64,000 bases of DNA, from positions 1 to 64,000 of IMG/VR virus record IMGVR_UViG_3300009184_005291; one strand, 5' to 3'. The stretch's first letter is position 1, and each line of letters begins with the position of its first letter. This document shows, in pieces, positions 14,293 to 18,827 of the stretch. The notes under the pieces are model-generated. The model was not told the DNA's origin, searched no databases, and saw only the letters and a program-made list of their open reading frames with translations. Source of the stretch: a virus. A program made the position numbers and the translations under genes.

Positions 14293-14544
14293 ATGGATTT
14301 AGTATCATTTATTTTAGGAATGTCTATAGTTGTGGTCATTGCTGTGGCAGTGGTTGCGGTTATTGCTTTTGTTAGAGTGAATAAACAGAAGGAAGAAATT
14401 AAACAAATAAATCAGTTTCTCGCAAGAGAAATTGAAAATCAAATGAGAGATCGTGATAGAATTATTGACGATATTTATCGAACAATCGATTCACGACTTG
14501 ATAAACTTGAAAGTAGATTGAACGCCGCAAGGCATAAAGATTAA
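14293..14544 (+). CDS. single-TM coiled-coil protein
   Basis: GGAG upstream of ATG 14293; hydrophobic N-terminus, coiled-coil tail. Confidence 0.65.
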   Translation: MDLVSFILGMSIVVVIAVAVVAVIAFVRVNKQKEEIKQINQFLAREIENQMRDRDRIIDDIYRTIDSRLDKLESRLNAARHKD

Positions 14545-14582
14545 ATAAAAACTTTCAAAGACGATAGTGTTATTCACATATT

Positions 14583-14744
14583 ATGTTCGGATTATTCAAG
14601 AAAAAAACAGAAAAAGAAAAATTACAGGAAACTTATGAGAAAATGATGGCAGATGCTTATAAATTATCTCATACAAACAGAACCGCATCTGACAAACTTC
14701 TGGCTGAAGCCGAAGAACTTGCGAAAAAAATATACGGTCAGTAA
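14583..14744 (+). CDS. Lacal_2735-family-like small protein (53 aa, not in ORF track)
   Basis: MFGLFKKKTEKEKLQETYEKMMADAYKLSHTNRTASDKLLAEAEELAKKIYGQ resembles this Bacteroidota family (recalled). Confidence 0.7.
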   Translation: MFGLFKKKTEKEKLQETYEKMMADAYKLSHTNRTASDKLLAEAEELAKKIYGQ

Positions 14745-14749
14745 TATTT

Positions 14750-14824
14750 GTCCCCGTAGCTCAGCTGGATAGTAGCGATTGCCTTCTAAGCAATAGGTCA
14801 CACGTTCGAATCGTGTCGGGGATA
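14750..14824 (+). tRNA. tRNA-Arg(UCU)
   Basis: ATTGC-CTTCTAA-GCAAT; canonical D and T arms. Confidence 0.92.
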
Positions 14825-14847
14825 CAAAATATTTCAGTATATTTGTA

Positions 14848-14938
14848 TTGTGATTGAGGAGCACGATTTAGATACACAAGCTCAATTACAAACTGGGTGA
14901 CACGGGAACGATTCAGATACTAGTGTTACCCTTTTTTT
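14848..14938 (+). ncRNA. putative twin-hairpin sRNA
   Basis: Own TATATTTG promoter, two hairpins sharing loop ACGATTYAGATAC, poly-T end. Confidence 0.6.
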
Positions 14939-15007
14939 ATTAGATATCAGAATAAATAATTTTACAAAATAAAAATATTTCATACATTAGAAGTACTTAT
15001 CAATACA

Positions 15008-15097
15008 ATGAGAACTACAAGTCAACATATTAACAGTAATAGTCAACAAGAGAATTGTTGTTATGAAAGTATTTGCCCTGTAGTTCGGATGTCATAG
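15008..15097 (+). CDS. putative leader peptide (29 aa)
   Basis: MRTTSQHINSNSQQENCCYESICPVVRMS followed by terminator hairpin. Confidence 0.4.
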   Translation: MRTTSQHINSNSQQENCCYESICPVVRMS

Positions 15098-15133
15098 AAA
15101 GTAATTTTTTAATTTAAGTTAAATTAAATTTTT

Positions 15134-15170
15134 AGACCCCGAACTCTTAAAAAAAGTTTGGGGTTTTTTT
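15134..15170 (+). terminator. intrinsic terminator
   Basis: AGACCCCGAACT...AGTTTGGGGTTTTTTT. Confidence 0.75.
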
Positions 15171-15222
15171 ATGACATGTTTTTGTTCTTTGAAATATTGT
15201 AGTATCTTTGTAAGACAAACAT

Positions 15223-15296
15223 GCTCCGGTCGTCTAATTGGTTAGGACATCCCCCTTTCACGGGGAAGCTTACGGGTTCGAGTCCCGTCCGGAGTA
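15223..15296 (+). tRNA. tRNA-Glu(UUC)
   Basis: TCCCC-CTTTCAC-GGGGA; canonical cloverleaf. Confidence 0.92.
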
Positions 15297-15420
15297 CTGA
15301 CACGAGAGGCAACCGAAGGCATACTAGACACTGTTTAGGCAATGGGAACGATCACACAGAATACCTCTCTCTCGTAGGTAAGTTTCAAGTTCTGTTGACT
15401 GTGGGGAAAGTCCCACTCTA

Positions 15421-15510
15421 TAGTCAGGTGGTGTAATGGTAGCACTCGGTGAAGTAGACGCAGTAATGTAGTCCCAATCCGTAGTACAGGTTCGAATCCT
15501 GTTCTTACTA
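15421..15510 (+). ncRNA. tRNA-like RNA 1 (acceptor, D and T arms; anticodon arm replaced)
   Basis: AGTCAGG-TG-GTGT AATGGTA GCAC ... ACAGG TTCGAAT CCTGT TCTTACT A. Confidence 0.7.
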
Positions 15511-15524
15511 CAAATAAAAAATAT

Positions 15525-15659
15525 ATGAAATGGATTATTAGACAATTTGGAAACGTATGGTGTTTATTTGTACATGGCTTTGTTTTAGATAAACACAAAA
15601 TGCATAAAGCATATGGACCACAAGAATGTCAAAAATGTGGTAGGTGGTGGGATTTATAA
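15525..15659 (+). CDS. small Cys/His (zinc-finger-like) protein, 44 aa, not in ORF track
   Basis: MKWIIRQFGNVWCLFVHGFVLDKHKMHKAYGPQECQKCGRWWDL. Confidence 0.55.
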   Translation: MKWIIRQFGNVWCLFVHGFVLDKHKMHKAYGPQECQKCGRWWDL

Positions 15660-15897: not shown

Positions 15898-16006
15898 TAG
15901 TCAGGTGGCGGAATTGGTAGACGCTAGGGAGTTGGTACAAAAACTCTATCAGATGCATTGATAATGTACCTCATACATCATACAGGTTCGAATCCGGTTC
16001 TAACTA
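15898..16006 (+). ncRNA. tRNA-like RNA 2 (Leu-type D arm, multi-hairpin insert, T arm)
   Basis: AGTCAGG-TG-GCG GAATTGGTAGA CGC ... ACAGG TTCGAAT CCGGT TCTAACT A. Confidence 0.7.
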
Positions 16007-16153: not shown

Positions 16154-16221
16154 AGTCAGGTGGTGTAAATGGCAGCACACAGTAGTTAACTGAGGAGCGG
16201 GTTAGAAACCCGTCCTGACAC
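16154..16221 (+). ncRNA. tRNA-like RNA 3 (shortened anticodon arm; degenerate Asn-like)
   Basis: GTCAGG/CCTGAC acceptor, D arm, CAGT-AGTTA-ACTG, T-loop TTAGAAA. Confidence 0.6.
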
Positions 16222-18684: not shown

Positions 18685-18827
18685 TGTAAGGTGTTGAAAT
18701 TGGCAGACAATCCCCGCCTGTCTCGTGGGGGAGGATCATCTGATAAACGAAGGATAATGGGTTGACCACAATCATGTAATGTCCTTTGGCTAAAGACCTC
18801 GTGGTGGTTCGAATCCATCTCTTACAG
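18685..18827 (+). tRNA. atypical 143-nt tRNA with GUC anticodon and ~70-nt variable arm
   Basis: TGTAAGG/TCTTACA acceptor, CCCGC-CTGTCTC-GTGGG, GGTGG-TTCGAAT-CCATC. Confidence 0.7.

What the first reader, a model, noticed from the sequence alone, without database searches (positions are those of the whole stretch)
14838..14938. Stand-alone twin-hairpin sRNA displaying the same 13-nt loop twice
Seen: TATATTTG promoter, then hairpin TTGTGATTGAG/CTCAATTACAA and hairpin GGGTGACAC/GTGTTACCC followed by T7. The stems are unrelated in sequence but both loops contain ACGATT(T/C)AGATAC. A related string, GGGAACGATCACACAGAATAC, recurs at about 15344-15364. Established: different stems with a conserved loop typify protein-titrating sRNAs and aptamer arrays. 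Inference: a ~90-nt sponge for a dimeric host RNA-binding or defence protein.
Basis: partly seen in the sequence, partly recalled or inferred. Interest (0 to 1): 0.7.

Follow-up and report, generated by a model that had tools for sequence, protein, structure and literature searches.

The report
Orphan phage twin-loop small RNA
This is a real, uncatalogued small RNA gene of freshwater Bacteroidota phages that shows one fixed 13-20-base sequence on the tips of otherwise unrelated hairpins; in most relatives it sits tail-to-tail with a small RNase-like gene, which this phage has deleted while keeping the RNA.

Summary
Window 14848-14938 is two hairpins with unrelated stems, each with ACGATTYAGATAC in its loop, behind a TAnnTTTG box and before T7. 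No Rfam family matches at E<=10. The same design recurs in many IMG/VR contigs. Stems covary (8 of 8 pairs compensatory, 90% paired against 53% shuffled) and the loop is fixed.

The string at 15344-15364 is not a member.

In 29 of 35 loci found through the protein alone, the RNA lies convergent to, and within about 20 nt of, a ~139-aa gene of no known family. Its likeness to T4 RegB is weak (hhalign probability 15%). In this window that gene is cleanly deleted, leaving its last five codons and stop. The RNA remains the best-conserved stretch nearby.

Partner-less copies also occur in a complete 31-kb phage, in three Bacteroidota MAGs, beside tRNA arrays and just upstream of GOLLD RNA genes.

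Best reading (about 0.45): a protein-binding loop-display RNA that binds or restrains that RNase-like protein, here an orphan. Binding and transcription are unproven.

The parts
14838..14845 (+). TATATTTG, a Bacteroidota-type -7 promoter box (TAnnTTTG)
   Evidence: Sequence. A TAnnTTTG box lies within 150 nt upstream in 36 of 40 distinct units, and in 28 it ends exactly 17 nt before the first loop motif. TANNTTTGTA occurs 15 times in the window against 6.4 expected; 0 of 100 shuffles reach 15. That this box is the Bacteroidota promoter consensus is recalled, not tested.
14848..14891 (+). Hairpin 1: 11-bp stem, 22-nt loop holding ACGATTTAGATAC (14863-14875)
   Evidence: The covariance model R1 hits 14852-14887 at 15.3 bits, E 0.2.
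14895..14931 (+). Hairpin 2: 9-bp stem, 19-nt loop holding ACGATTCAGATAC (14908-14920)
   Evidence: R1 hits 14896-14930 at 21.4 bits, E 0.004.
14932..14938 (+). T7 run; with hairpin 2 a likely intrinsic terminator, the 3' end of an RNA of about 88 nt
   Evidence: A run of at least 4 T follows the last hairpin in 35 of 40 distinct units. The simple scanner does not call it because of its loop-size rule.
14940..14957 (-). Remnant of the partner gene: stop codon plus last five codons (IYSDI*)
   Evidence: Global alignment with relative L030 and translation. Synteny: window 14825-14959 matches L030 10040-9907, and window 14978-15291 matches L030 9463-9151. About 440 nt that hold the 139-aa gene are missing here.
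14750..14825 (+). tRNA-Arg(TCT) directly upstream (context; read-through into the RNA is possible)
   Evidence: ARAGORN and Rfam tRNA, 57.8 bits.

Best explanation
Window 14848-14938 is an orphan copy of an undescribed 'loop-display' small RNA of Bacteroidota phages. It is probably made by host RNA polymerase from its own TAnnTTTG promoter. It folds into two hairpins that hold out the same single-stranded sequence, roughly RGGNAACGAUUYAGAUACAA. The loops are most likely the binding site of a phage-encoded ~139-aa protein with an RNase-like motif (T.HA..R). In most relatives that protein's gene ends within about 20 nt of the RNA's terminator on the other strand. On this reading the RNA binds and restrains or titrates the protein, like an RNA antitoxin or pseudo-substrate. 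In this phage the protein gene has been deleted and the RNA kept. The RNA would then either neutralise the same protein brought in by co-infecting relatives, in the way phage pseudo-ToxI neutralises ToxN, or act on a second target. Shown: the RNA's structure, the conserved loop, the promoter and terminator signals, the gene linkage and the deletion. Inferred: transcription, binding, RNase activity and the direction of control.
For: Structure and conservation:
- The fold has z = -3.47.
- On an ungapped, loop-anchored alignment, 8 of 8 stem pairs show compensatory change and 93% of cells pair. The best slid control reaches 68% (the 18 rows were picked from 29 for register).
- On 54 distinct model-aligned hairpins, 90% of cells pair against 53% shuffled, with 0 of 500 shuffles as high.
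- 11 of the 13 motif positions are invariant in 54 of 54; one is G in 52 of 54 and the Y position varies (T 28, C 22, A 4).
- G-U pairs number 25 against 6 A-C pairs, which names the + strand as the RNA strand.

Own transcription unit: promoter and T-run counts are.

Linkage, found without using the RNA motif:
- Of 35 loci fetched through the protein, 29 have model hits. All hits lie on the opposite strand just after the stop codon, and none lies elsewhere in those loci.
- Five distinct further loci of L096-L112 show the same arrangement.

RNase-like partner:
- The family's invariant E15, H38, D41 and R42 align with T4 RegB E19, H48, D51 and R52.
- RegB H48 is reported as catalytic and RegB has a RelE/YoeB-like fold (PMC3014915, section 9, passages read).

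Loss pattern:
- The gene is deleted here.
- It is frameshifted in L015 with an intact RNA.
- Only about 12 codons are left in L161 (by eye).

The RNA segment is 92-96% identical to relatives, while flanking matches are 66-85%.

The two genes carry different upstream signals. A TATTTAT-type motif lies before the protein's ATG in 13 of 15, against the host-type box before the RNA.

Precedent for a phage-borne orphan RNA antitoxin: pseudo-ToxI (PMC3475682, abstract and passages read).
Against: - No binding, cleavage or toxicity has been shown.
- The RegB likeness is weak. hhalign gives probability 15% for the wide alignment, 5% for the narrow one and below 1% for RegB alone.
- Pfam, PHROGs, PADLOC, NCBIfam and the PDB sequence search name nothing.
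- The link is not obligatory in either direction. The protein occurs without the RNA in L061, L063, L065 and L067, and with a different RNA in L073.
- A distant branch of the protein family (L077-L095) has no such RNA downstream.
- Among 40 model-confirmed loci anchored on one loop, only 18 have the partner next to them.
- A CheckV-complete 31-kb phage and three MAGs have the RNA and no partner.
- The convergent layout is unlike any described type III system.
- Transcription evidence is one contig of a relative in one RNA library, with 13 differences. DNA carry-over is not excluded.
Confidence: 0.45

Rival explanations
1. The hairpin loop is a general recognition element for processing or control of the phage's stable RNAs (tRNA arrays, GOLLD). 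It would be read by the RNase-like protein or by another factor. The free-standing twin-hairpin RNA would then be one use of the element among several, not mainly an antitoxin.
For: Of 22 model-confirmed loci without an adjacent partner, 9 have the hairpin 530-625 nt upstream of, and on the same strand as, an Rfam GOLLD match of 313-327 bits. Six lie beside tRNA arrays. In those units the order is promoter, one hairpin, an A-rich run and the next promoter, sometimes in tandem. One contig carries both an RNA-plus-partner locus (L172) and a hairpin-plus-GOLLD locus (L178). The window's copy lies between tRNA-Arg and the next tRNA block.
Against: In the window and in 35 of 40 distinct units the last hairpin is followed by a T run, and usually by a convergent gene. 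There is then nothing downstream on that strand to process or control. Several of the 9 GOLLD loci are near-duplicates of one another, so independent cases are fewer. No cleavage site or processing intermediate was seen. The own record has no GOLLD match, although that search's control rang nowhere.
Confidence: 0.2
2. One reading: the RNA is a sponge or decoy for a host RNA-binding or defence protein, independent of the phage RNase-like gene.
For: Partner-less copies with intact loops are common. Examples are this window, a CheckV-complete 31-kb phage (G001), L007 and L014, and three Bacteroidota MAG loci, two of which I saw next to serine-recombinase genes. The loop is nearly invariant while the phage protein falls to 41-45% identity, as would be expected if the target were a slowly evolving host factor.
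Against: No host candidate was found. The tight, position-exact linkage to the phage gene in 29 of 35 protein-anchored loci needs a separate explanation. The twin motif is rare in host genomes: 1 of 401 sampled Bacteroidota genomes, and that one was the query's own MAG.
Confidence: 0.2
3. It is a base-pairing regulator. The loops would be seed regions that pair with an mRNA, or the RNA would act as a cis-antisense partner of the convergent gene's 3' end, as in type I toxin-antitoxin systems.
For: The convergent layout has almost no gap, and I saw no T run for the protein gene on its own strand (by eye). That gene's transcript may therefore run antisense over the RNA gene. Long single-stranded conserved loops can act as seeds.
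Against: The loop-to-partner-mRNA duplex is no better than for shuffled loops in 11 of 11 pairs, and the best sites are not at a conserved position. In the window the complement of the motif has no match better than 2 mismatches. Pure antisense action needs no conserved loop. Here and in other orphans the antisense target is gone, yet the loops are intact.
Confidence: 0.08
4. It is a DNA-level or chance feature: a repeat, a protein operator, or a mimic of a CRISPR repeat.
For: The motif is a direct repeat 45 nt apart. Six of the nine genome contigs pattern hits were unrelated tandem repeats, which shows that the bare pattern can arise otherwise.
Against: Compensatory stem changes and the G-U over A-C excess (25 to 6) point to an RNA on one strand. 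Promoter and T-run signals are conserved. At CRISPR-like spacing (41-71 nt) the motif pair is found in 0 of 401 sampled Bacteroidota genomes.
Confidence: 0.03

Closest known systems
Type III toxin-antitoxin RNAs (ToxI, CptI, TenpI) and phage pseudo-ToxI (PMC5086642, search listing only; PMC3475682, abstract and passages read)
   Same: A repeated RNA element is linked to a small endoribonuclease-like gene on mobile DNA. Copy number of the repeat varies (1-4 here). A phage can carry the RNA alone, as phage TE carries pseudo-ToxI.
   Different: Here the repeats are hairpins with unrelated stems and one shared loop, not near-identical tandem units. The RNA gene converges on the protein gene instead of lying upstream on the same strand. 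The protein matches no ToxN, AbiQ, CptN or TenpN model (PADLOC 0 of 12; Pfam). Processing and binding are untested.
T4 RegB endoribonuclease and the RelE/YoeB fold (PF10715; PMC3014915; PMC1702504)
   Same: The partner is a small phage protein. Its invariant E, H, D and R align with RegB E19, H48, D51 and R52. RegB recognises a single-stranded site that starts with GGA (PMC1702504, abstract), and the loops start with an invariant GG. The review raises the possibility of an anti-RegB partner.
   Different: hhalign probability is only 15%, and there is no Pfam PF10715 hit. The base after GG is variable, so GGA is not conserved. RegB has no known RNA partner. The fold could not be checked here.
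Loop-display protein-titrating sRNAs (CsrB/RsmZ type; Rfam motifs with one sequence in two hairpin loops, such as TwoAYGGAY: names recalled)
   Same: Several hairpins of differing stems present the same loop sequence.
   Different: The loops are 19-22 nt with 13-16 fixed bases, not short GGA loops. No Rfam family matches at E<=10. The carrier is a phage, and the linked gene is RNase-like.
GOLLD RNA (Rfam RF02032)
   Same: It is a phage-borne structured RNA of lake metagenomes that lies near tRNAs. In 9 loci the same hairpin lies just upstream of it on the same strand.
   Different: GOLLD is a large RNA of a different family. The window and its record have no GOLLD match. The relation is one of neighbourhood only.

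Membership tests
Any Rfam 15 family | Covariance-model match at or near the gathering score | tested here: not met
   No match overlaps 14838-14938 at the gathering threshold or at E<=10.
Type III toxin-antitoxin (ToxIN, CptIN, TenpIN) | Antitoxin is a tandem array of near-identical direct repeats upstream of, and on the same strand as, the toxin gene (feature as recalled) | tested here: not met
   The hairpins have unrelated stems. The RNA gene is convergent with the protein gene in 29 of 29 linked loci.
Type III toxin-antitoxin (ToxIN, CptIN, TenpIN) | Toxin belongs to the ToxN/AbiQ, CptN or TenpN endoribonuclease families | tested here: not met
   PADLOC: 0 families for 12 of 12 members. 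Pfam: none of these families.
Type III toxin-antitoxin (ToxIN, CptIN, TenpIN) | The RNA binds and inhibits the protein, and the protein processes the RNA | not testable with these tools
   Complex prediction takes no RNA and was not available. This needs bench work.
RegB (Pfam PF10715), for the partner protein | Sequence match to the family model | tested here: not met
   No PF10715 hit among 12 members at E<=10. None appears among the 25 families shown for the 47 wider members at E<=1; 44 families matched, each in one member.
RegB / RelE-like fold, for the partner protein | Profile-profile or structural similarity with the catalytic residues in register | tested here: inconclusive
   hhalign gives probability 15.3%, E 0.0017 over 52 columns, with E, H, D and R in register. 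The narrow alignment gives 5.2%. The ESM Atlas's nearest named cluster is DUF4258 (38% of members), at 0.78 and 0.83, which is a lead only.
CsrB/RsmZ-type sponge | Many short loops with GGA that bind CsrA/RsmA (feature as recalled) | tested here: not met
   The loops are 19-22 nt with a different fixed sequence. No Rfam CsrB or Rsm match.
RNA anti-CRISPR (CRISPR-repeat mimic) | The sequence matches a host CRISPR repeat | tested here: not met
   The motif pair at 41-71 nt spacing is found in 0 of 401 sampled Bacteroidota genomes. This is a sample, so 'not found in those searched'.
16S rRNA helix-24 (790 loop) mimic | Similarity to rRNA beyond chance | tested here: not met
   The best local match to E. 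coli rRNA is 8 nt at 16S 788-795. 1299 of 2000 shuffled loops score as well.

The most novel reading that the evidence does not exclude
The fixed loop is the address label of a phage-encoded RegB/RelE-like endoribonuclease that acts on the phage's own stable-RNA island: the leaders of tRNA arrays and of GOLLD RNA. The free-standing multi-hairpin RNAs would be decoys that set how much of the enzyme is free. Orphan copies, like the one in this window and those on host mobile elements, would serve as RNA immunity against the enzyme of rival phages. That would be a toxin-antitoxin-like pair with a RelE-fold toxin and an RNA antitoxin, and it would give a first functional handle on GOLLD.
Probability: 0.2. 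Interest if true: 0.85.

Novelty: new variant of a known kind. Interest (0 to 1): 0.68.

Why it matters
The RNA family is widespread in lake and river phages of Bacteroidota. It has textbook-quality covariation and an almost invariant 13-16-nt loop, yet it is in no RNA catalogue. My text searches for the motif strings found no paper, and the topic searches gave no relevant title.

If the RNA restrains a RelE/RegB-like RNase, it would be a new architecture of RNA-protein toxin control carried by lytic phages. Orphan copies such as this one would be natural examples of RNA-based immunity between phages.

Its recurrence in front of GOLLD RNA genes and in tRNA arrays links it to phage structured RNAs whose functions are still open, as far as I recall. 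All of this is directly testable with a two-plasmid assay and gel shifts.

Tried and rejected
Ideas tested and rejected:
- 16S 790-loop mimicry is not significant: 1299 of 2000 shuffles score as well.
- Loop pairing with the partner mRNA finds nothing: 11 of 11 pairs are no better than shuffles.
- A CRISPR-repeat mimic is not supported: 0 of 401 genomes.
- The string at 15344-15364 is not a third copy.

Searches that named nothing:
- The INPHARED phage search with 14560-15560 found only tRNA matches. Of 411 records, none covers 80% of the query.
- The partner protein has no match in Pfam, PHROGs, PADLOC or NCBIfam. The PDB sequence search gave only weak hits, probably spurious (viral phosphoprotein, E 0.005).
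- The small ORFs beside orphan or RNA-less loci match no family. These are the 83-aa ORF in L061, the 159- and 102-aa ORFs in L038, the 43-aa ORF in L001 and the 97-aa ORF in L040.
- I fetched DUF4258 proteins from Flavobacteriales. They were six near-identical membrane-anchored forms, so I did not use them for a profile comparison.

RNA libraries:
- 24 runs hold parts of 14400-15400.
- In the four runs laid, no contig covers 14910-15080. One contig (X4) covers 14747-14898 with 13 differences.
- These are contigs, so they give no ends, no strand and no level.

GOLLD in the own record: no match, but the control rang nowhere, so this shows nothing.

Supplementary files of papers were not opened. 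They might hold lists of phage sRNAs that I could not see.

Full report
**What is there.**
The window is part of an 85-kb IMG/VR virus record that CheckV rates 28% complete. The finding lies in a tRNA-rich stretch: 12 tRNAs by ARAGORN and 13 by Rfam, all on the + strand between 10874 and 19001. It sits directly after tRNA-Arg(TCT) at 14750-14825.

- TATATTTG at 14838-14845.
- Hairpin 1, with arms 14848-14858 and 14881-14891.
- Hairpin 2, with arms 14895-14903 and 14923-14931.
- T7 at 14932-14938.

The two loops hold the only exact copies of ACGATTYAGATAC in the window. The fold is better than all 200 shuffles, z = -3.47. No Rfam family matches at the gathering score or at E<=10.

The 'related string' at 15344-15364 exists. 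The hairpin model does not recognise it, and its spacer folds no better than chance.

**It is a conserved RNA family.**
The double motif with a 15-45-nt gap occurs in 30 IMG/VR stretches. In all of them each motif sits in the loop of a hairpin, and the stems differ widely between lineages.

An ungapped, loop-anchored alignment of 18 hairpins gave these figures:
- 8 of 8 pairs have compensatory change.
- 93% of cells pair, against 57% shuffled and at most 68% when the partner is slid.
- The 18 rows were chosen from 29 with the same loop geometry because at least 6 of 8 positions paired in register, and that choice inflates the percentage.

A model built from that alignment (R1), run over 43 loci, aligned 74 hairpins, 54 of them distinct. 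These pair in 90% of cells against 53% shuffled, and 0 of 500 shuffles reach that. This alignment is fitted to the model.

Other points from the same rows:
- 11 of the 13 motif positions are invariant in 54 of 54. One is G in 52 of 54, and the Y position varies (T 28, C 22, A 4). The flanking GG and AA are nearly fixed.
- Retrieval by motif and by model favours conserved loops. The protein-anchored set below does not share that bias.
- G-U pairs outnumber A-C pairs 25 to 6, so the RNA is read from the window's + strand.
- A TAnnTTTG box lies upstream in 36 of 40 distinct units. In 28 it ends exactly 17 nt before the first motif.
- A T run follows the last hairpin in 35 of 40.
- The box plus TA is enriched in the window: 15 against 6.4 expected.
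- Units have 2 hairpins in 30 cases, 1 in 4, 3 in 3 and 4 in 3.

**The usual neighbour.**
Downstream of the terminator, most relatives have the 3' end of a convergent gene for a ~139-aa protein. The stop codon lies within about 20 nt of the T run.

A scan with the protein alignment alone returned 35 loci:
- In 29, the RNA model hits only the opposite strand just after the stop codon.
- L066 is cut off 24 nt after the gene.
- L061 and L065 have an 83-84-aa convergent ORF in the RNA's place.
- L063 and L067 have neither.
- L073 has a different, longer RNA.

Five distinct loci of L096-L112 also carry the RNA. A distant branch of the protein family (L077-L095) does not.

The protein family has 276 hits in one search and 127 representatives in another. 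Where a source names them, they are all called hypothetical. Its consensus motif is T.HA..R.

No library names the protein. Against a 19-member alignment of T4 RegB relatives, hhalign gives probability 15%, E 0.0017. It puts E15, H38, D41 and R42 opposite RegB E19, H48, D51 and R52. The narrow alignment gives 5%, and RegB alone gives below 1%.

RegB's H48 is reported as catalytic, its fold is RelE/YoeB-like, and its site starts with GGA (PMC3014915, section 9, passages; PMC1702504, abstract). I regard the RNase reading as plausible but unproven here.

Five earlier follow-up reports of this scan reached a RelE/RegB-like call on other genomes. Those are unchecked notes, and I could only partly test them.

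**What is special in this window.**
The partner gene is missing. The window aligns with relative L030 through the RNA and on through the gene's stop and last five codons (14940-14957, IYSDI*). It then skips about 440 nt and resumes in front of a short ORF that both share.

Neither the narrow nor the wide protein profile finds a copy in the 85-kb record. A positive control found the protein in 4 of 4 records known to have it. The unsampled part of the genome remains open.

The RNA segment is 92-96% identical to relatives, while neighbouring matches are 66-85%.

Other losses with the RNA kept:
- A frameshift in L015, which could be an assembly error.
- A stump of about 12 codons in L161 (by eye).

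Partner-less copies also occur elsewhere:
- A CheckV-complete 31-kb phage.
- Two further viral fragments.
- Three Bacteroidota MAGs. Two of these loci lie beside serine-recombinase genes.

**A wider context found late.**
Some of these are chance or coding matches.

Of the 70 new loci, the model confirms 40 at E<=0.001. Of those, 18 have the convergent partner and 22 do not.

Among the 22 without a partner:
- 9 have the hairpin 530-625 nt upstream of an Rfam GOLLD match on the same strand. Several of these are near-duplicates.
- About 6 lie beside tRNA arrays.
- There the unit is a promoter, one hairpin, an A-rich run and the next promoter, sometimes repeated.
- At least two contigs carry both an RNA-plus-partner locus and a hairpin-plus-GOLLD locus.

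So the hairpin is a reusable element, not only the partner's neighbour.

**Mechanism.**
The data fit a displayed recognition sequence for a protein. The stems are free to change, the loop is fixed and the copy number varies.

Base-pairing with the partner's mRNA finds no support. Mimicry of the 16S 790 loop is no better than chance. A CRISPR-repeat origin was not found.

The RNA has a host-type promoter box. The protein gene has a different, phage-type upstream motif in 13 of 15 cases. This suggests that the two are made at different times, which is an inference.

I therefore favour, at about 0.45, an RNA that binds and restrains or titrates the RNase-like protein. The copy here would be an orphan that may protect against the same protein from related phages, as pseudo-ToxI does against ToxN.

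The main rivals are a general processing or control element of the stable-RNA island (0.2) and a host-factor sponge (0.2).

**Expression.**
Twenty-four freshwater, lake and river RNA libraries hold parts of 14400-15400. Of the four laid, one contig from a relative spans tRNA-Arg into hairpin 2 (14747-14898). Nothing was laid over 14910-15080. This neither shows nor excludes a transcript.

**Novelty.**
I found no Rfam family. No paper holds the motif strings, and the topic searches gave no relevant title. The scan has met this family before on other DNA.

Noticed in passing
L131, L148, L149, L152, L154, L167, L178, L179, L183 (hairpin 530-625 nt upstream of RF02032 matches): The same conserved-loop hairpin, as a single hairpin behind its own TAnnTTTG promoter and sometimes in tandem units, lies just upstream of GOLLD RNA genes on the same strand. 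A tmRNA gene lies nearby in five of these loci (L148, L149, L152, L154, L178).
   Followed up: partly
window 15008-15097, 15136-15172, 15203-15212: A 29-codon ORF (MRTTSQHINSNSQQENCCYESICPVVRMS) is followed by a GC-rich hairpin with a T run, then TATCTTTGTA and tRNA-Glu. It resembles the 'leader-peptide attenuators before phage tRNA arrays' of scan notes e1-5943195 and e1-5943213. The ORF start is shared with relative L030.
   Followed up: no
L061:2908-3159 (-) and L065:2908-3162 (-): Where the RNA would be, two relatives have a conserved 83-84-aa acidic ORF convergent on the RNase-like gene (55% identical to each other, no family match). It may be a protein stand-in for the RNA.
   Followed up: partly
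L015 (partner gene, about residue 90): The partner gene is frameshifted while the adjacent twin-loop RNA is identical to that of intact relatives. This could be a pseudogene or an assembly error.
   Followed up: partly
L038:3918-3999 (-), L040:2165-2364 (+), L039:1263-1344 (+): Copies of the hairpins occur in Bacteroidota MAGs without a TAnnTTTG box and without the partner protein in the genome. In L038 they lie in the 3' region of a 159-aa ORF. L038 and L040 lie next to serine-recombinase genes, so they are probably on mobile elements.
   Followed up: partly
window 15422-15511, 15898-16006, 16154-16221, 18685-18827: There are odd tRNA-like elements in the array. One is a weak tRNA-Tyr call (38.9 bits) with an irregular anticodon arm. 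The others are uncalled stretches with D- and T-arm-like ends.
   Followed up: no
partner genes in L002-L065 (upstream 9-22 nt): A TATTTAT-type motif precedes the start codon of 13 of 15 partner genes. The mirrored string TATAAATA lies upstream of the RNA in several loci, beside divergent neighbouring genes (by eye). It is probably a phage-specific promoter, distinct from the host-type box in front of the RNA.
   Followed up: partly
L001:4456-4587 (+) and the same place in L014: In a complete 31-kb phage the orphan twin-loop RNA is followed on the same strand by a 43-aa ORF with a hydrophobic tail. It has no family match.
   Followed up: no
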